Origin: a virus
Reading direction: 5' to 3' (one strand)
IMG/VR virus record: IMGVR_UViG_3300027749_000040
Location: 1-64,000 of that record
Length of the DNA: 64,000 nt
A program made the position numbers and the translations under genes. The notes under the pieces are model-generated. The model worked only from the letters and a program-made list of their open reading frames with translations, ran no database searches and had not been told where the DNA came from. Each line of letters begins with the position of its first letter. Within the stretch, counting starts at the first letter, position 1. This document shows, in pieces, positions 7,226 through 18,436 of this stretch.

Positions 7226-10195
7226 TTATCCCTGTGAATAATTTAATAAATCTGTGTCAACCCTGTTACCAAATTTAATTTTGTCTAATAATTCATCAGT
7301 CTTAGATTCCAACATAACAGTAAACTTCTCTATAATTGAGGAAGAACTATCATCTATATCTTCACTAATTTCTTCTGCATTATCAGATAATAACCCAGTT
7401 TCTTCTACTTTATCAAGCAATTTTTTAATAGCATCAAGTTGATCTTCATTACCTACAAATTCTTTACCATGTAACTGAACAAAGTAACCTTCAGAAGGGC
7501 CACTAAACATTGCACCTTTTTTGGCTGCTTCAAAGTGTACTGGATCTTTTGGAACTGTCTGGAACAATCCTTGTTTATTCATTGCGGCTACTGCATTAGG
7601 ATCTTTGTAATTTTGAATATCAACTGCTAATCCTCGTTCATGCTTACTTCTACCTGGTTTGGCAATAGGCATACCAGAAGGACCTATACCAGGTCTGCCT
7701 GCTTTAACTGACTCGTCCCAAACTCTTTGCTGATCTTCTGGATCACGTTTAGCACTATTAATTGCAATTTTATTACCTGTCATTGAATTAAATGCCTCAG
7801 CTGCCGCAATTATTCTATCCTTGAAGCCGCTAGCAAGTGCATCAAAATTACCCTTACTCCCTGAATTACTACCAAATGATAAAATAGTTGCTGATGATTT
7901 ATTTGATGATCCACTTTCAGAAGTTGTTTGACCTTTTGCAGGTGATTCAGATGAGTTGGAATCTGTTGTTCCAGGAGACATACTTCTTGTTGTAGCACCT
8001 TTTGCAGGTGGCCCGGGAGGTGTAGGTATTGTTGCTCCTGGAGGTAAGTTAGCCGGAGCCGTTTCTTTTTGTTCTTTAGTAACTGTTGTTAATTTTTGTT
8101 CTGTGTTGGCTAAATCTTTATTCATTACTTCTAACTCAGATTTCATTCTAGTAATAAATGCTTTATTAGCTTCTAATTTTGGATCAAGATTTTCAATACT
8201 TTGATTTTTAATTCTAATAGATTCTTTTAATTTTGCAACTTCTTTTTTTAAGTCTAAAGATTGTTCTTCTTTTGAAGCAGGTACTGCAATGCCTTTTTCT
8301 TTTGCCATTTTCTTAGCGGCATCACCAAATAACTCCACAGACTCATTGAATACTTTCATAGCACTTGCCATGGCGAGACCTGCACCGTCCATTTTCTTAG
8401 CGGCATCATCAAGTACCATTGCAGTTTGTTGCTGTTGTTGCGCTACTTCAGCATTTTGTTGAGTAGTTTTATCTTTTGTATTCTTTTTATCGTCTTGTAG
8501 TTTATCCAAATAGTCGCCTACTGACAAACCTTGCTTTGCAGCCTGTTCTTGAAATTCTGCCGATCTTTTAGTAAATTCTTGTGCTTGAGCAAATCCACCA
8601 GTCATTAGTCCACTAGTATCACCACCAAATCTACCTGTGTCTGCCATCATGTTTGCTTGACGCTCGTATCCTTTGGCGGCACGTGTTGTTAACTCTCCGG
8701 TATCTGCACCTTTTTTAATACCCTCAATCAATCCACCTTTACCACCAAATTGATTATATGCTACTGCACTTGCTTGTCCTGTTATACCTTTACCAGCAAA
8801 ATACTCAGCAACTCCAGTTGCTCCTTTAGTATCGCCGGACGCTTGAAGCATTGCGGCTGCTTCATAAGCACGTTTTAATTCTGCTAATCTTGCTTGACCG
8901 GCTGCACTTCTATCTTGCTCAGCCTCAAAAATGGCTGCTCGTAAATTTTCATTAGCCATCACAGTGGCTCTAGCTTCTTCTAATTCTTTTCTGTTTGTGC
9001 CAGTTATCATTGATAGTTTATCCAAATTATCAATATATTTTTTGGCACCGGCAATCTGCTGTTCATCTGACATACCACGAGCAAGACCTAAGCGATCTTC
9101 CTCAGTCATGTATTTCATTATATGTTCACGTTGGGCATCACTATTGATACCCATTAATAAAAATTCTTTATTAAGTTTACTTGTTGGTGCGGCTATAGCA
9201 CTAGCTACTGTTTCAAACTTAGATACACCAATGGCCGCGGTGCCACCGAACAATGCCAAGTTCTTAGAGTTTTCACCTAATAGTTTATTAAACTTTTCTA
9301 TTTCGCCGGCACTTAATCCTACTTTATGAAGCGAATCATAAAGACCGTTCATTCCTTTTGCAGTAGTTAAACCCTTTTCACTTAATGTACCATACGATTT
9401 GTATAAGTCATCATTAAGTTTAGCACCCATCTCAATAAGTTTAGTAGCACCCTCCATTGCGGCGGCGGCTATTGCTAAGGCCGCGCCCACAATCTTCAAC
9501 ATTGGGCCAAGTGGTAATATTAGTAAGGCTGCGCCAATGCCGTATACGGCTTTAGTTACAGAGTCACTGAATTCTTTTGCTCCTTTTGCACCTACACTGG
9601 CACCGCGTTCACCTTTGTAAATAGCTTCTGACATTGCACCAAAAGCCTTTGTTACTCCAGTTAATGCGGCAATAGTTCCTTGTAATGCTACAGCACCACC
9701 AACACTCTTGCCGGTCATCTCAAACATTTTGTCTTGTAACTTCTCAAAGACTCCGCTAAAACTGTTTACCCCGCCTGCTAGTGCTCTAAATTGTTCGACC
9801 GGTTTGTCAGTCGCTTGTACTAGTGCAGATTCTTTAGCAATAGATTTATCTAATTTTGCTAATAATTCTTGCTGACTTATAGAAAGTTCTTCATCAACTT
9901 TAACTTCTTTACCACTTTGGTCAGTAATATATCCGCGGCGTTGAAGTTGTTGCTGATAAAGTGCTTGTTGTTTATCTGCTAACTGTTTAGTTTTACTATA
10001 GGAATTTTCTAATTGATTAGTGACCCCGTCCTGATCTGCGGCAGCTTGGCTATTTTCTTTCATCAGGCTGTCTCTAATTTGAACAGCCATAGGACCTAAA
10101 ACATCTAAGAATGTTTGGTCAGTTTGACGTACAGCAGTGTTTAAATCCGTAAGACCATTGTCTAACTCTCTGACTGTTTGAGGATCCATTGCCAT
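7226..10195 (-). CDS. Tape-measure-like protein with C-terminal M15 (VanY/L,D-endopeptidase-type) peptidase domain
   Basis: Long Ala/Gly-rich helical protein with a hydrophobic segment (GIGAALLILPLG...), a Pro/Ser linker, then NSAKR...SKHERGLAVD...DPVHFE zinc-peptidase motifs. Confidence 0.75.
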   Translation of the reverse strand: MAMDPQTVRELDNGLTDLNTAVRQTDQTFLDVLGPMAVQIRDSLMKENSQAAADQDGVTNQLENSYSKTKQLADKQQALYQQQLQRRGYITDQSGKEVKVDEELSISQQELLAKLDKSIAKESALVQATDKPVEQFRALAGGVNSFSGVFEKLQDKMFEMTGKSVGGAVALQGTIAALTGVTKAFGAMSEAIYKGERGASVGAKGAKEFSDSVTKAVYGIGAALLILPLGPMLKIVGAALAIAAAAMEGATKLIEMGAKLNDDLYKSYGTLSEKGLTTAKGMNGLYDSLHKVGLSAGEIEKFNKLLGENSKNLALFGGTAAIGVSKFETVASAIAAPTSKLNKEFLLMGINSDAQREHIMKYMTEEDRLGLARGMSDEQQIAGAKKYIDNLDKLSMITGTNRKELEEARATVMANENLRAAIFEAEQDRSAAGQARLAELKRAYEAAAMLQASGDTKGATGVAEYFAGKGITGQASAVAYNQFGGKGGLIEGIKKGADTGELTTRAAKGYERQANMMADTGRFGGDTSGLMTGGFAQAQEFTKRSAEFQEQAAKQGLSVGDYLDKLQDDKKNTKDKTTQQNAEVAQQQQQTAMVLDDAAKKMDGAGLAMASAMKVFNESVELFGDAAKKMAKEKGIAVPASKEEQSLDLKKEVAKLKESIRIKNQSIENLDPKLEANKAFITRMKSELEVMNKDLANTEQKLTTVTKEQKETAPANLPPGATIPTPPGPPAKGATTRSMSPGTTDSNSSESPAKGQTTSESGSSNKSSATILSFGSNSGSKGNFDALASGFKDRIIAAAEAFNSMTGNKIAINSAKRDPEDQQRVWDESVKAGRPGIGPSGMPIAKPGRSKHERGLAVDIQNYKDPNAVAAMNKQGLFQTVPKDPVHFEAAKKGAMFSGPSEGYFVQLHGKEFVGNEDQLDAIKKLLDKVEETGLLSDNAEEISEDIDDSSSSIIEKFTVMLESKTDELLDKIKFGNRVDTDLLNYSQG

Positions 10196-10282: not shown

Positions 10283-11107
10283 ATGGATAATAACCCACTA
10301 AAGCAATATTTTCGTAGACCAGCAATTTATTTAAAACTTCCTAGCGGGGGCAATTATTATCCGCAAGATTCAGTTGATATACCGGTTAACGGAGAAGTTG
10401 CGGTATATCCAATGACAGCAGTTGATGAAATTACTACTAAAACTCCGGACGCATTGTTCAATGGTAGTGCTGTTGTTGAGATTATTAAAAGTTGTATTCC
10501 ATCAATCAAAGATCCTTGGGAAATTCCATTAATGGATCTAGATCCTATACTAGTTGCTATCAGAACTGCAACAAACGGAAATAATATGGATATTACTAGC
10601 AAATGTCCTGCATGTGAAGAAGAAGCAAGTTATGGTATTAATTTGGGCAATCTACTAGGTACATTACAAAAAGGTAAATATGATGAGCCTTTAATTCTAC
10701 AAGACTTGTCATTCAAGTTTAAACCACTAGCATATAAACAAATCAATCGTATTAATCAAACTCAGTTTGAGATACAAACAGTTGTAATGGGATTAGATAA
10801 TATTGAAGATGAAAATCTAAGAAAACAAAAATCAACTGAAACAATGCAAAAACTAAATCAATTAAGTGTTTCATTGGTATCCGAAACTATTGAGAGCATT
10901 ACTACTCCGAGTGCTGTAGTCACTGAAAAAGAATTTATCATTGATTTTTTAAAGAATTGTGAAAAACAGACATTTGAAGCACTACGTAATTATGCTATTA
11001 AGATGCGTGAGGCTAGTGAAATCAAACCATTAAAGATGACATGCATTCACTGTCAGCACGATTACGACCAAAGCTTAATACTTAACCCTACAGATTTTTT
11101 CGTATAA
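10283..11107 (+). CDS. gp26: Baseplate hub assembly protein / tail chaperone (T4 gp26-like)
   Basis: YLKLPSGG, PMTAVDE, D...ILVAIR, two CxxC motifs (CPAC, CIHC), C-terminal DFF; GGAG SD. Confidence 0.85.
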   Translation: MDNNPLKQYFRRPAIYLKLPSGGNYYPQDSVDIPVNGEVAVYPMTAVDEITTKTPDALFNGSAVVEIIKSCIPSIKDPWEIPLMDLDPILVAIRTATNGNNMDITSKCPACEEEASYGINLGNLLGTLQKGKYDEPLILQDLSFKFKPLAYKQINRINQTQFEIQTVVMGLDNIEDENLRKQKSTETMQKLNQLSVSLVSETIESITTPSAVVTEKEFIIDFLKNCEKQTFEALRNYAIKMREASEIKPLKMTCIHCQHDYDQSLILNPTDFFV

Positions 11108-11143
11108 GGCTTCTTACGTTAGATCCTAGCGGAGTACAGAAGC
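11095..11143 (+). promoter_or_regulatory. Putative -1 programmed ribosomal frameshift signal
   Basis: Slippery heptamer T-TTT-TTC (11095-11101), 7-nt spacer, then a bulged hairpin at 11109-11143. Confidence 0.65.
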
Positions 11144-11331
11144 TCATTGATAACTTAGATAAAGAGTCTGAAGATATCAAAAGATCCGCTATCAAACTAT
11201 CTTGGTATATGCGCGGTGGTGCAACCTATGATGACATTATGAATATGTCTGACTTTGAACGAAAGTGTGTGTTGGAATTAGTAGAAGAAAACTTAGAAAC
11301 AACTAAGAAGTCAGGAATGGCTTTCTTTTAA
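11101..11331 (+). CDS. gp51-like domain in the -1 frame of gp26 (probable frameshift extension)
   Basis: Open frame RIRLLTLDPSGVQKLIDNLDKESEDIKRSAIKLSWYMRGGATYDDIMNMSDFERKCVLELVEENLETTKKSGMAFF*. The first ATG is at 11209 with no SD. Missed by the ORF track. Confidence 0.7.
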   Translation, partial: RIRLLTLDPSGVQKLIDNLDKESEDIKRSAIKLSWYMRGGATYDDIMNMSDFERKCVLELVEENLETTKKSGMAFF

Positions 11332-11376: not shown

Positions 11377-11418
11377 AGATGAACTTCGTTCATCTAAGAA
11401 CTCACTTCGTTCGTTCTT
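11377..11418 (-). repeat. Two adjacent GAA-triloop hairpins (likely ssDNA structure)
   Basis: Minus strand AAGAAC-GA-AC-GAA-GT-GA-GTTCTT directly followed by AGATGAAC-GAA-GTTCATCT. Confidence 0.55.
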
Positions 11419-11454
11419 TGTTTTTACGGTAATCAATTCTTTTTATTCTAATCT

Positions 11455-11822
11455 TATACGGATATCATTGCCGATTTGAAGCCATGGTAGTGCAAATTTG
11501 CACTACCCTTGGTGAATGGTTGTTTTGCACGACCGTCATCCATTAGTTGTCTATCCTCATACAATTAGCTATTTCTGCTATCATATGCTACCGGTTACCC
11601 TGTAAAGTTTATAGGCTGTAGTGAAGTCTGTCAATTATCTTTCAATTGACGCTTCGGTAACGCACATTCTGTATCATCAAGACAAAGTAGATACAGACTT
11701 GTTGAAGGTTCGCTTTTGTCGATTGCCTTCTCGGTATTCCATATACATAAATGTATATGCTTGCTCCAGATCCATCAGCTATCTTTCAAGCATCTTCAAG
11801 GAGGTCTGACAAACTCAGACAA
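11455..11822 (-). ncRNA. Candidate large structured non-coding RNA
   Basis: No credible ORF; at least seven hairpins plus a long-range helix (see findings). Family not recognised. Confidence 0.5.
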
Positions 11823-11839
11823 CAAATTTTTACTATATA

Positions 11840-12394
11840 TTAGGTATTGATTGTGAGGATATTATTTGGTTTTGACGTTGTGTCTGTTGATATTGAATAT
11901 GTTTTTAGTAGTTCTGTGTTTAGAGCAAAGAATGAATCAAATTCAAAAATTGTCCAATCACCGTGTTTTTTAGAGGTATAATACACGAAATTATCACTAA
12001 CCCATGTTAGTTTGCTTTGTACAGCAACATAGCGACCTTTGCGGTTAAACTTCATAAACAAAAGATTAACATCATGCGGATCAGCTACATCCATGAGTTG
12101 GTCTATCCAAGCATCGATTACTTTACAATCCCCTGTAAGTAACAAATGAAACGGAAAATCAGCATAAAATTTGCACTCTATATTCATTCGTTTAAATGAT
12201 TGACCGGGTACAACATCGCCCTTGAAAGAACGAATCTGACCTTCATGTAAAAATTCTGTACGCTTTTGATTTTTACCGCCCACATATGCGCCAGATCCAG
12301 GGGCACGAATGAAACTTTCACCATACTTCTCTGAGAGATATTTAGCGATTTCTCGCTCGAAACCTGAACCTTTATTTTTCTGTGGACTTGACAT
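11840..12394 (-). CDS. Holliday junction resolvase (Hjc-like PD-(D/E)xK nuclease)
   Basis: KNKGSGFEREIA..L, F.R.PGSGA, GDVV, NIECKFY. Late-type box GATAAGTA (12409-12402) lies 7 nt before ATG 12394. Confidence 0.8.
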   Translation of the reverse strand: MSSPQKNKGSGFEREIAKYLSEKYGESFIRAPGSGAYVGGKNQKRTEFLHEGQIRSFKGDVVPGQSFKRMNIECKFYADFPFHLLLTGDCKVIDAWIDQLMDVADPHDVNLLFMKFNRKGRYVAVQSKLTWVSDNFVYYTSKKHGDWTIFEFDSFFALNTELLKTYSISTDTTSKPNNILTINT

Positions 12395-12430
12395 AGACAT
12401 ATACTTATCGTGTATTTTTATATCCGTAAT

Positions 12431-17194: not shown

Positions 17195-18436
17195 ATGGCA
17201 TCACAAGCTCAATTAGAAGCCGATATTGCTTTGGCAAAGGCTCAAGTAGCATCATTAGAACTTCAATTAGACGCAGCCTCAGGTTCACCACAGCCTGACC
17301 CCGCAGTAATTGCCGATTTGGAAAGACAACTACAGATAGCAAAAAATGCTCTAATACTACTTCAAAATGAGTTGAATAATCTTCTTGTCGCATCCGACCC
17401 CAATACAAATATTGGAACAGCGGGACAACTACCAAGCGCACAAAAAACGTTACCTGATAGTAGCCCAACTGGGCCGGCACGTGATGACAATGGTAATTTA
17501 ATGCCCGGTTGGAATGAAGATGAATTTGGAACACCTTATTATGTAGGTAATGGATTTGTTGCCCCAACAACTCAAGCAAGTGCCAACACTACAACACAAG
17601 GCATTACTGCTAATTTAGCAAATACTCAAGGTAACGCTACTAATCAAGATGCGGTTAGTTTCGAAAAAGCAAAAGATTGGCGTGTTAGATTAAGTCTAGC
17701 ACCAAGTGCAAATTATTTGTATAAAGCAGAAAAAGGTAAAATAGGTATATTAGCACCATTGGCGGTAACAAATGGTGTGATCTTCCCCTACACACCATCT
17801 GTTAGTGTTGTATATGCTGCCTCATATGATTCGTCTGAATTAGTACATAGTAACTATAAGATTTATAACTATAAGAACAGTGCAGTTGATACTGTTACTA
17901 TTACGGGTGATTTTACTGCACAGGATACAAATGAAGCCAACTACTTATTGGCTGTAATTCATTTTTTTAAATCAGTCACAAAAATGTTTTATGGGCAAGA
18001 TCAAAATCCAAGAAACGGTACTCCTCCGCCATTAGTTTATATGAGTGGATTGGGAACATTCCAGTTTGATAATCATCCATTAGTTGTAAGCAACTTTACA
18101 TATAGCTTACCAAATGAAGTAGATTACATTCGTTCAGGTAGTGTAACAACCGAACCCGGAAGTTCTACAACTGGTCAAAACACAGTAAATAATACAGATA
18201 ACGCATCAAATGCAAGAATTCAGTCCTCTGGGTTAGGGGCCAAAATACCTAACTTTCAGAGACAGCAAGCAACGATTAACAGCAACGCAACATACGTACC
18301 TACAAAAATGCAAATAGTAATAACATGTATACCAATTGTCACTCGTAATGACATCAGCAATAATTTCAGTCTCAGAGATTATGCAACCGGTGCATTGTTG
18401 CAAGGTAGCAAACGCAATGGCGGAGGTATTTGGTAA
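17195..18436 (+). CDS. Baseplate/tail-tube initiator-like protein (gp48/gp54 or CIS tube-like)
   Basis: IFPYTP.V...Y, ITGDFTAQ, PPPLVYM.G.G, V.NFTYSLP.EVDY, YVPT; directly upstream of the gp53-like gene. Confidence 0.6.
   Translation: MASQAQLEADIALAKAQVASLELQLDAASGSPQPDPAVIADLERQLQIAKNALILLQNELNNLLVASDPNTNIGTAGQLPSAQKTLPDSSPTGPARDDNGNLMPGWNEDEFGTPYYVGNGFVAPTTQASANTTTQGITANLANTQGNATNQDAVSFEKAKDWRVRLSLAPSANYLYKAEKGKIGILAPLAVTNGVIFPYTPSVSVVYAASYDSSELVHSNYKIYNYKNSAVDTVTITGDFTAQDTNEANYLLAVIHFFKSVTKMFYGQDQNPRNGTPPPLVYMSGLGTFQFDNHPLVVSNFTYSLPNEVDYIRSGSVTTEPGSSTTGQNTVNNTDNASNARIQSSGLGAKIPNFQRQQATINSNATYVPTKMQIVITCIPIVTRNDISNNFSLRDYATGALLQGSKRNGGGIW

What the first reader, a model, noticed from the sequence alone, without database searches (positions are those of the whole stretch)
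11455..11822. Unrecognised ~370-nt highly structured non-coding element downstream of the resolvase
This is the largest gene-free gap in an otherwise packed window. Minus-strand helices seen: GTCTGA/TCAGAC (11820-11804); CTCC...GGAG enclosing a GAAA-containing arm; CATATACA/TGTATATG (11759-11740); GAAGG..TCG/CGA..CCTTC; TCTGTATC/GATACAGA (11697-11668); GTCAATT/AATTGAC; CATATG..TAGC/GCTA..TGTATG; and the perfect palindrome GGTAGTGCAAATTTGCACTACC (11507-11486). A long-range pairing CGTTACCGA/TCGGCAATG could close a multibranch domain. Purine-rich GAAA/GTAA/GCAA loops favour the minus strand. I could not match tRNA, tmRNA, RNase P or group I/II cores. Inference: a large phage ncRNA or ribozyme-like RNA, or an origin-priming RNA.
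Basis: partly seen in the sequence, partly recalled or inferred. Interest (0 to 1): 0.7.

Follow-up and report, generated by a model that had tools for sequence, protein, structure and literature searches.

The report
New large knotted jumbo-phage RNA
The gene-free gap behind the resolvase gene of this uncultured giant T4-like water phage encodes a real, intricately folded non-coding RNA of about 360 bases, kept at the same spot in hundreds of related phages and absent from every RNA catalogue searched; its job is unknown.

Summary
Window 11467-11827, minus strand, encodes a structured RNA of about 360 nt with at least 11 helices and two pseudoknots. I collected 166 distinct homologues (57-96% identical) from IMG/VR and metagenome contigs, fresh water and sea. 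In the consensus structure 96.2% of pair cells are canonical (column shuffles 82.3%, slid partners 31-42%) and 56 of 86 pairs show compensatory double changes. G-U outnumbers A-C 1005 to 82, which fixes the minus strand. No reading frame is conserved.

No Rfam 15 family matches the window or 18 homologous loci. The RNase P and Polynucleobacter-1 models find nothing in the 174-kb record.

Wherever the flanks were readable the order is the same: PD-(D/E)XK resolvase, then the RNA, then, convergent, a gp26-like hub gene with a conserved -1 frameshift extension.

A sister clade carries a different large RNA in the same slot. That RNA contains Rfam's Polynucleobacter-1 motif, follows an unrelated GIY-YIG nuclease, and shares only the two-hairpin tail.

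Function is unknown. My best guess is a stable trans-acting RNA cut from the 3' end of the recombination operon transcript.

Earlier agents of this scan described the same RNA family on other genomes.

The parts
11467..11827 (-). Whole structured RNA core, about 360 nt, from the 5' AAUU.GUU to the 3' CGGCAAU
   Evidence: Conserved at 57-96% identity in 166 unique homologues. The consensus structure has 86 pairs, 96.2% canonical, 56 with double-sided changes. A profile HMM finds a single copy in the 174-kb record, at 11467-11834.
11804..11820 (-). H1, the 5' hairpin GUCUGA/UCAGAC
   Evidence: Up to 5 pair types per position, including GU:21.
11764..11803 (-). H2 (CUCC 11800-11803 with GGAG 11764-11767) enclosing the invariant UUGA and a variable hairpin H2a
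   Evidence: Near-invariant. The CUCU/AGAG compensatory variant occurs in L005 and in 4 of the 166 sequences.
11740..11759 (-). H3 hairpin; capped by a GNRA tetraloop (GUGA/GCGA/GCAA/GUAA) in most homologues and by UUUA here
11732..11736 (-). H4 5' strand, UACCG (long-range helix closing the central multiloop)
   Evidence: Pairs with 11589-11593. The outer pair covaries: UA 47, AU 10, CG 2.
11704..11730 (-). H5: GAAGG..UCG-loop-CGA..CCUUC with invariant internal-loop bases
   Evidence: GAAGG/CCUUC changes to GAGGG/CCCUC, GAGUG/CACUC and GUAGG/CCUAC.
11668..11697 (-). H6 hairpin UCUGUAUC/GAUACAGA; its loop holds the 5' strand of PK1 (11680-11685)
   Evidence: All 8 pairs show double-sided changes.
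11656..11661 (-). H7 5' strand, GUUACC
   Evidence: Pairs with 11594-11599. GC to AU and CG to UA compensation.
11623..11655 (-). H8, a long hairpin: GAAG..GUCAAUU / AAUUGAC..CUUC
   Evidence: Compensatory changes in the inner and outer stems.
11613..11615 (-). PK2 5' strand, CCU (UCCC in most homologues)
   Evidence: Pairs with 11555-11557. At least 6 compensated variants: UCCC/GGGA, CUCC/GGAG, GCC/GGC, ACC/GGU, UCUC/GAGA, CCU/AGG.
11589..11599 (-). 3' strands of H7 (GGUAAC) and H4 (CGGUA)
11558..11587 (-). H9 hairpin CAUAUGAUAGC/GCUAAUUGUAUG
   Evidence: 7 of 8 outer pairs show double-sided changes.
11547..11557 (-). 3' strands of PK2 (AGG, 11555-11557) and PK1 (AGACAA, 11547-11552)
   Evidence: PK1 has at least 9 compensated duplex variants, for example UUAUCU/AGAUAA, UCAUUUUU/AAAAAUGA, UCACUU/AAGUGA, CUGCUUU/AAAGCAG.
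11518..11534 (-). H10 region (GGAUGACGG, a small hairpin, C[A/G]UG loop)
   Evidence: Invariant GGAUGACGG. The stem is poorly aligned. The loop could pair with CAUG at 11483-11486, but with no double-sided change.
11486..11507 (-). H11: the near-invariant stem GGUAGUGC/GCACUACC with a tetraloop
   Evidence: The closing pair switches UA to AU in half of the sequences. The stem sequence is otherwise fixed.
11420..11466 (-). A-rich, poorly conserved spacer
   Evidence: Conservation falls to 0.05-0.6 per column.
11377..11418 (.). Two-hairpin tail (AAGAAC-loop-GUUCUU; AGAUGAAC-GAA-GUUCAUCU). On the + strand, TTGTTTTT follows the 11396-11418 hairpin
   Evidence: Stems covary and loops are near-invariant. 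This is the only part shared with the Polynucleobacter-1 loci (best E 3.9e-6).
11840..12400 (-). PD-(D/E)XK nuclease ('resolvase'), directly upstream on the same strand
   Evidence: PF24608 at 1.3e-24 and phrog_244. Present upstream of the RNA wherever the contig extends that far.
10283..11331 (+). gp26-like baseplate hub gene plus its -1-frame extension, convergent with the RNA
   Evidence: PF12322 at 5.7e-18. T_TTT_TTC heptamer at 11095-11101. -1 frame and heptamer found in 161 of 162 unique junctions.

Best explanation
SHOWN. Window 11467-11827 (minus strand) is the gene of a discrete, compactly folded non-coding RNA of about 360 nt. It has at least 11 helices. H4 closes a central multiloop that holds H5, H6 and H7/H8. 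Two pseudoknots tie the strand after H9 back into that domain. About 100 junction and loop bases are invariant. The RNA founds a family that is in no RNA catalogue I searched and is confined to a clade of uncultured aquatic Rak2-like (distantly T4-like) jumbo phages.

INFERRED. The RNA starts 12 nt after the resolvase stop, with no promoter consensus in front of it. I therefore think it is made by read-through of the early/middle gp47-gp46-resolvase operon. It would then be trimmed at the A/U-rich flanks to a stable species, possibly closed by a 5'/3' helix. The mature RNA would act in trans through its three-dimensional fold, as a ribozyme, a ligand or protein-binding core, or a self-assembling 'ornate' RNA like ROOL and GOLLD. 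It would not act through base-pairing to targets.

MY ODDS. Real functional structured RNA on the minus strand: about 0.97. Trans-acting stable RNA of the kind described: about 0.55. Its molecular activity is not known.
For: Conservation of the whole gap at 70-96% nucleotide identity while the neighbouring gp26 protein falls to 42-55%.

Covariation: 67 of 97 pairs and 56 of 86 pairs show double-sided changes. Canonical cells are 96.2% against 82.3 +/- 0.2% in shuffles and 31-42% with slid partners.

G-U 1005 against A-C 82.

Two pseudoknots, with at least 9 and at least 6 compensated variants.

No conserved ORF: length mod 3 is 70/53/43, 144 of 166 sequences have stops, and there is no period-3 signal.

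GNRA-class conservation of the H3 loop, and invariant junction blocks.

Single copy in the record.

11-mer complementarity to the rest of the record is at chance: 69 against 56 +/- 13.

No sigma-70 promoter or terminator consensus above chance.

The same slot in a sister clade also holds a large structured RNA.
Against: I examined no transcript data, so ends, timing and stability are inferred.

The 5'/3' closing helix shows no compensatory change and is 85% canonical.

A promoter inside the resolvase 3' end, or a phage-specific promoter type, cannot be excluded.

Nothing computed distinguishes a ribozyme from a ribonucleoprotein scaffold or from a self-assembling RNA.

The fixed position next to a nuclease gene and at a convergent module boundary could instead point to a cis or locus-bound role.
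Confidence: 0.85

Rival explanations
1. Cis-acting 3' element of the recombination operon and boundary between convergent transcription units. A bulky folded 3' UTR would protect the gp47-gp46-resolvase mRNA from 3' exonucleases and, with the two-hairpin tail, would keep early/middle and late transcription from running into each other.
For: It starts 12 nt after the resolvase stop with no promoter consensus. It lies exactly between convergent genes. The conserved two-hairpin tail is followed by a T-run on the + strand. The slot is also filled by an RNA in a sister clade.
Against: A stabiliser or insulator does not need about 100 invariant junction bases and two covarying pseudoknots. The upstream gene differs between clades (PD-(D/E)XK against GIY-YIG, sometimes with an extra ORF between) while a large RNA persists. 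Cultured relatives do without it.
Confidence: 0.15
2. Origin-priming RNA. A structured pre-primer, as ColE1 RNA II or the T4 oriF/oriG R-loop transcripts, whose 3' A-rich spacer forms a persistent RNA-DNA hybrid that starts leading-strand synthesis.
For: It sits at the border of the replication/recombination module, and T4 oriF lies near genes 25/26 (background knowledge). An A/T-rich, sequence-variable spacer lies directly 3' of the fold. An earlier scan note reports a related-slot RNA behind RNase HI in another lineage (untested).
Against: There is no skew or composition signal at the locus. rA:dT-rich hybrids are weak (background knowledge). Known R-loop origins do not need an ornate pseudoknotted fold. 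No origin data exist for these phages.
Confidence: 0.1
3. RNA partner of the adjacent small nuclease: a cofactor, guide or regulator, by analogy with the omega/reRNAs that follow TnpB genes.
For: Same strand, and 12 nt behind a 186-aa nuclease gene in every homologue whose contig reaches that far. In the sister clade both the nuclease (GIY-YIG) and the RNA are replaced together while the flanks stay.
Against: This is only one independent swap, confounded by phylogeny. The same nuclease family works without any RNA behind it in SCTP-2, Phosso and PA5oct. In some Polynucleobacter-1 loci another ORF separates nuclease and RNA. The resolvase shows no RNA-binding features. The variable spacer shows no target matches above chance.
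Confidence: 0.07
4. A very divergent member of a known RNA family: RNase P RNA, a group I intron, GOLLD/ROOL, or the Polynucleobacter-1 RNA.
For: Its size is that of RNase P RNA. Short look-alike strings exist (GGAAUACCG / ACAG..ACCGGU; GGAUGACG..AUGGCAAAU is shared with Polynucleobacter-1), seen. It has the same slot and tail as the Polynucleobacter-1 RNA.
Against: No Rfam model reaches E = 10 on the window or E = 5 on 18 homologous loci. RF00010 and RF01718 find nothing in the record, while both detect their own members in controls. Profile HMMs match only in the tail. Shared k-mers are not collinear. The helix order differs from that of RNase P and group I.
Confidence: 0.06
5. Not an RNA at all: a small protein gene, or a DNA-level element such as palindromic protein-binding sites or a packaging or recombination site.
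For: A 62-codon GTG ORF lies on the + strand at 11621-11809. A perfect 22-bp palindrome lies at 11486-11507.
Against: The ORF is not conserved. There is a strand-specific G-U excess and there are pseudoknots.
Confidence: 0.02

Closest known systems
GOLLD (RF01998), ROOL (RF03087) and OLE RNAs: large 'ornate' bacterial and phage RNAs
   Same: A large, multi-branched, pseudoknotted RNA rich in invariant junction bases. It is carried by phages from lakes (GOLLD was also first found in lake metagenomes), and its biochemical job is unknown. These are the nearest functional analogy (cryo-EM shows RNA-only assemblies, PMC12286853).
   Different: No covariance-model match. It is about 360 nt against about 580-800. 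It is not next to tRNA genes; none is found in the record. I found no palindromic loop that would suggest self-assembly.
Polynucleobacter-1 RNA motif (RF01718; Weinberg et al. 2010, PMC2864571)
   Same: It occupies the same genomic slot in a sister clade of the same phage group: downstream of gp46 and a small nuclease gene, convergent with gp26 and its -1 extension, and followed by a homologous two-hairpin tail. It is also of unknown function and, as I found, part of a larger RNA of about 390 nt.
   Different: The cores do not align. RF01718 scores nothing here but 91-120 bits there. Profile HMMs match only in the tail. The helix layout differs. The upstream nuclease is GIY-YIG, not PD-(D/E)XK.
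Bacterial RNase P RNA and group I introns (large pseudoknotted ribozymes)
   Same: Similar size, a long-range helix closing a multi-helix core, two pseudoknots, a GNRA loop, and many invariant unpaired bases.
   Different: No model match. The order of strands differs. It is not inside a host gene. No tRNA genes are found in the record.
ColE1 RNA II and the T4 oriF/oriG R-loop transcripts
   Same: A structured transcript at the edge of the replication/recombination module, followed by an A/T-rich stretch.
   Different: There is no evidence of an origin here, and those RNAs are not known to need conserved pseudoknotted cores.

Membership tests
Polynucleobacter-1 RNA (RF01718) | Match to the Rfam covariance model at or above 37 bits | tested here: not met
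   No hit at E <= 10 in the whole 174-kb record. No hit at E <= 5 in 18 homologous loci. Positive control: 6 of 6 sister-clade loci score 91-120 bits.
Polynucleobacter-1 RNA (RF01718) | Alignable core sequence | tested here: not met
   nhmmer --max in both directions finds only the two-hairpin tail. Shared 7-mers are not collinear.
Polynucleobacter-1 RNA (RF01718) | Genomic context (downstream of a small phage gene, per Weinberg 2010; here: convergent with gp26-ext) | tested here: met
   gp26 and ext lie convergent to RF01718 loci, as they do to this RNA. The upstream gene is GIY-YIG there and PD-(D/E)XK here.
Bacterial RNase P RNA (RF00010 and other RNase P models) | Covariance-model match, with P4 formed by CR-I and CR-V | tested here: not met
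   RF00010 has no hit at E <= 10 in the record; 11 of the 14 control genomes gave a match, 8 of them above the family cut-off. All Rfam models gave nothing on the window. The look-alike strings are separated by the H7 strand, unlike J2/4-P4 (sequence reading).
Group I intron (RF00028) | Model match; insertion within a gene with flanking exons; P7 5' strand adjacent to P3 3' strand | tested here: not met
   No Rfam hit. It lies between the stops of two convergent genes. The PK1 5' strand sits in the H6 loop, far from the H4 3' strand.
GOLLD / ROOL / OLE / HEARO large RNAs | Covariance-model match | tested here: not met
   Full Rfam 15 scans at gathering and at E <= 10 or E <= 5.
GOLLD / ROOL | Homo-oligomeric RNA-only assembly | not testable with these tools
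   Needs cryo-EM or native gels. I saw no conserved palindromic loop.
tRNA / tmRNA | ARAGORN detection | tested here: not met
   None in the window or in the record.
TnpB/IscB guide RNAs (reRNA, omega RNA) | Adjacent TnpB/IscB-type nuclease and transposon ends | tested here: not met
   The neighbour is a 186-aa PD-(D/E)XK nuclease in a fixed, non-mobile syntenic position. There is no HEARO hit.
Protein-coding gene | Conserved open frame and period-3 substitution pattern | tested here: not met

The most novel reading that the evidence does not exclude
These jumbo phages keep a dedicated 'RNA slot' behind their recombination nucleases, filled in different clades by non-homologous large pseudoknotted RNAs: this one behind a PD-(D/E)XK nuclease, and the Polynucleobacter-1-containing RNA behind a GIY-YIG nuclease. 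On this reading the RNAs are functional analogues with a real biochemical activity. They would be either a new ribozyme or RNA machine needed during infection, or an RNA subunit that works with the swapped nuclease, which would be the smallest RNA-dependent nuclease pairing known.
Probability: 0.15. Interest if true: 0.9.

Novelty: categorically new. Interest (0 to 1): 0.74.

Why it matters
Large RNAs with this density of conserved tertiary-structure signals are rare. Historically they have turned out to be ribozymes, riboswitch-like receptors or, as shown recently for ROOL, GOLLD and OLE, self-assembling RNA architectures.

This RNA is abundant in lake and ocean jumbo phages. It is under stronger constraint than its protein neighbours. 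It also has a non-homologous counterpart in the same genomic slot of a sister clade, which gives a natural comparison for function.

It offers a compact target of about 360 nt, well supported by covariation, for cryo-EM and biochemistry. It also gives the 16-year-old orphan Polynucleobacter-1 motif a genomic home: T4-like jumbo phages, a gp26-convergent slot, and membership of a larger RNA.

Tried and rejected
1. Rfam 15. Scans at gathering on the whole window, at E <= 10 on the region, and at E <= 5 on 18 homologous loci gave only chance snoRNA and miRNA hits.
2. RNase P idea, prompted by GGAAUACCG and ACAG..ACCGGU. RF00010 found nothing, and the strand order differs.
3. Group I idea. The RNA is not in a gene, there is no model hit, and the pseudoknot topology differs.
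4. Polynucleobacter-1 homology, a lead from earlier scan notes. The model and profile tests failed for the core; only the tail is shared.
5. Coding. The + strand 62-codon ORF is not conserved.
6. Antisense regulator. 11-mer complementarity to the record is at chance.
7. Promoter and terminator consensus scans found nothing above chance.
8. Origin signal. Composition and skew are unremarkable.
9. blastn against 50,697 cultured phage records found no match. The closest cultured relatives (SCTP-2, Phosso) have no gap behind the resolvase and no profile hit.
10. The genome contigs pattern scan returned only chance matches among the 120 rows shown.
11. PA5oct RNA-seq paper (PMC7318152). None of its four ncRNAs lies in the equivalent region.
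12. The catalogue of 8,495 IMG/VR candidate motifs of 29-151 nt (PMC10690425) may hold fragments of this RNA. Its supplements are not held here, so I could not check.
13. The 5'/3' closing helix and two further tertiary pairings remain unproven because their partners are invariant.

Full report
**What is there**

The finding lies in the 508-nt gap between two convergent genes. On the minus strand a 186-aa PD-(D/E)XK nuclease (PF24608, 1.3e-24; phrog_244), the 'resolvase', ends at 11840. It follows gp46/gp47-like SbcC/SbcD genes. On the plus strand a gp26-like baseplate hub gene (PF12322) ends at 11107, and a 73-codon -1-frame extension runs to 11331.

The window is the first 64 kb of a 174-kb IMG/VR virus record judged about 50% complete. 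Its closest cultured relatives by protein are Rak2-like jumbo phages: SCTP-2, Phosso, PA5oct, Atu_ph07, 121Q. The gap is the largest internal ORF-free stretch of the window.

**Is it more than chance?**

The single sequence folds better than dinucleotide shuffles on both strands, z = -3.07 (minus) and -3.83 (plus). That alone decides little. The comparative evidence is decisive.

- With the resolvase as bait I fetched 80 IMG/VR loci. blastn shows the whole gap conserved at 70-96% nucleotide identity in essentially all of them.
- Two DNA-pattern scans added at least 120 viral contigs and about 63 metagenome contigs, including Tara and other marine assemblies.
- In total 166 distinct sequences, 57-96% identical to the window, were aligned.
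- Conservation is blockwise. Invariant single-stranded blocks alternate with variable stems. Examples of the blocks are CCUCCUUGA, GAUGGAUCUGGAG, AUACCGAG, AGCGAAC, GUGCGUU, CACUACAG, AACCGGUAGC, GGAUGACGG and CCAUGGCUUCAAA.CGGCAAU.
- The flanking gp26 protein has meanwhile drifted to 42-55% identity.

**Structure**

RNAalifold on 60 sequences gives 97 pairs, 67 of them with compensatory double changes. On 166 sequences the consensus has 86 pairs:

| Measure | Observed | Column shuffles | Partners slid 1-3 columns |
|---|---|---|---|
| Canonical pair cells | 96.2% | 82.3 +/- 0.2% (max 82.7) | 31-42% |
| Pairs with double-sided change | 56 | 42.8 +/- 2.0 (max 48) | 20-33 |

G-U pairs outnumber A-C 1005 to 82, so the folded strand is the window's minus strand.

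The layout, in window coordinates, is as follows.

- A possible 5'/3' closing helix: 11821-11827 with 11467-11473. It is 85% canonical with no compensation.
- H1: 11804-11820.
- H2: CUCC/GGAG, enclosing a variable hairpin.
- H3: 11740-11759, GNRA-capped in most homologues.
- H4: the long-range helix UACCG/CGGUA (11732-11736 with 11589-11593). It closes a multiloop holding H5 (11704-11730), H6 (11668-11697) and H7 (11656-11661 with 11594-11599). H7 in turn encloses H8 (11623-11655).
- H9: 11558-11587.
- A small H10 region, then the near-invariant H11 (11486-11507).

Two pseudoknots are supported by many compensated variants.

- PK1 joins the H6 loop UUGUCU (11680-11685) to AGACAA (11547-11552), with at least nine duplex variants.
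- PK2 joins CCU (11613-11615) to AGG (11555-11557), with at least six variants such as UCCC/GGGA, CUCC/GGAG, ACC/GGU and UCUC/GAGA.

Two further tertiary pairings are fully compatible with the data but involve invariant partners. They are UUG with YRA at 11699-11701, and the H10-loop C[A/G]UG with CAUG.

**Not coding, not a known RNA**

The 62-codon + strand ORF is not conserved. Its length mod 3 is 70/53/43 across homologues, 144 of 166 have in-frame stops, and column variability has no period-3 signal.

- Rfam 15 gives nothing at gathering on the window, nothing relevant at E <= 10 on the region, and nothing at E <= 5 on 18 homologous loci.
- ARAGORN finds no tRNA or tmRNA.
- The RNase P model RF00010 finds nothing in the record, although 11 of the 14 control genomes gave a match, 8 of them above the family cut-off.
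- blastn finds nothing in 50,697 cultured phage records.
- The record holds one copy.

**Context**

Wherever the flanking sequence is on the contig, the order is resolvase (57-95% identity), then the RNA, then, convergent, ext and gp26. The RNA begins 12 nt after the resolvase stop. No sigma-70-type promoter or intrinsic terminator exceeds chance.

After the core comes an A-rich, poorly conserved spacer (11420-11466). Then come two hairpins (11377-11418) whose stems covary and whose loops are nearly fixed. On the + strand, TTGTTTTT follows the second of them.

Cultured relatives with the same nuclease family have no gap and no profile hit behind it.

**The Polynucleobacter-1 link**

Earlier notes of this scan named Rfam's Polynucleobacter-1 motif as the closest known RNA, so I tested that.

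- RF01718 finds nothing in this record at E <= 10.
- A pattern taken from the 2010 alignment fetched 37 IMG/VR contigs. Six of the six I tested are bona fide RF01718, at 91-120 bits.
- In these contigs the motif is the 5' part of a structured RNA of about 390 nt. That RNA sits in the same slot: convergent with a gp26 30-50% identical to ours and with its -1 extension.
- In L451 the upstream genes are gp46, then a radical-SAM gene, then a hypothetical gene, then a 144-aa GIY-YIG (SegE-like) nuclease. The GIY-YIG gene lies upstream in nearly all of the other loci, sometimes with one more ORF between it and the RNA.
- Profile HMMs in both directions, with filters off, match only the two-hairpin tail (best E 3.9e-6). 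They never match the core. Shared 7-mers are not collinear.

So the two clades share the flanks and the tail, but they carry different nucleases and different, or unrecognisably diverged, RNAs. This places the orphan 2010 motif in jumbo phages. It also makes the slot itself interesting.

**How it probably works**

What is shown is a discrete, strongly constrained, doubly pseudoknotted RNA on the minus strand. Everything that follows is inferred.

With no room or consensus for a promoter, and with A/U-rich flanks, the simplest biogenesis is read-through from the recombination operon followed by trimming to a stable core. The density of invariant junction bases, the GNRA loop class and the pseudoknots point to a function exerted through the 3D fold: a ribozyme, a receptor, a ribonucleoprotein core or a self-assembling RNA. 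Antisense pairing looks unlikely, because complementarity to the rest of the record is at chance.

Rivals are:

- a cis-acting 3' end or boundary element (0.15);
- an origin-priming RNA (0.10; no skew signal);
- a partner of the adjacent nuclease (0.07; the joint swap of nuclease and RNA is suggestive, but it is a single event, and the nuclease family works alone elsewhere);
- a divergent known family (0.06);
- a non-RNA reading (0.02).

**Novelty**

No catalogue or paper I could search describes this RNA. A 2023 survey of IMG/VR intergenic motifs reports only 29-151-nt candidates, and its supplements were not available to check.

Within this scan, at least seven earlier follow-up reports on other genomes describe the same family and reach the same verdict. 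My results agree with them on reality, the pseudoknots and the tail. What this report contributes, to my knowledge, is:

- the explicit negative homology tests against Polynucleobacter-1;
- the same-slot, different-nuclease relationship;
- the tail-only homology.

Noticed in passing
window 11095-11331 (and 10283-11107): Conserved -1 programmed frameshift. In 161 of 162 unique gp26/ext junctions from related contigs the 73-codon ORF lies in the -1 frame, and an in-frame T_TTT_TTC heptamer sits within 24 nt of the gp26 stop. This is a G/GT-style extension of a baseplate hub protein.
   Followed up: partly
window 11377-11418: Two-hairpin tail with covarying stems but near-invariant loops (GAACGAAGUGA; GAA). 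It is the only segment homologous between this RNA's loci and the Polynucleobacter-1 loci, where the loop reads GAGCGAUAGCGAAA. The loop conservation is unexplained for a mere terminator.
   Followed up: partly
L445-L481 (for example L451 6770-7250, minus): Rfam's Polynucleobacter-1 motif (RF01718) is the 5' third of a structured RNA of about 390 nt in T4-like jumbo phage contigs. It sits behind a stand-alone 144-aa GIY-YIG nuclease and is convergent with gp26-ext. The 2010 description found it in no purified phage.
   Followed up: partly
L482 5526-7038 (PA5oct, MK797984 about 75.7-77.2 kb); L483 4056-4938 (Atu_ph07): In these cultured relatives the region between gp26 and the resolvase (PA5oct) or gp46 (Atu_ph07) holds only short ORFs: 39-50 codons in PA5oct, 40-112 codons in Atu_ph07. 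It could hide an analogous RNA. The PA5oct RNA-seq paper lists no ncRNA there.
   Followed up: no
window 18073-18087 (+): A 15-nt perfect complement to RNA positions 11536-11550 (ACAACUAAUGGAUGA). Part of it lies in a variable stretch of the family, and the overall count of complementary 11-mers is at chance, so it is probably coincidence.
   Followed up: partly
window 7226-10195 (-): A 989-aa protein with weak VanY-type peptidase (E 3e-5) and tail-fibre (phrog_17582) matches lies just upstream of gp26. It may be a tail-associated lysin.
   Followed up: no
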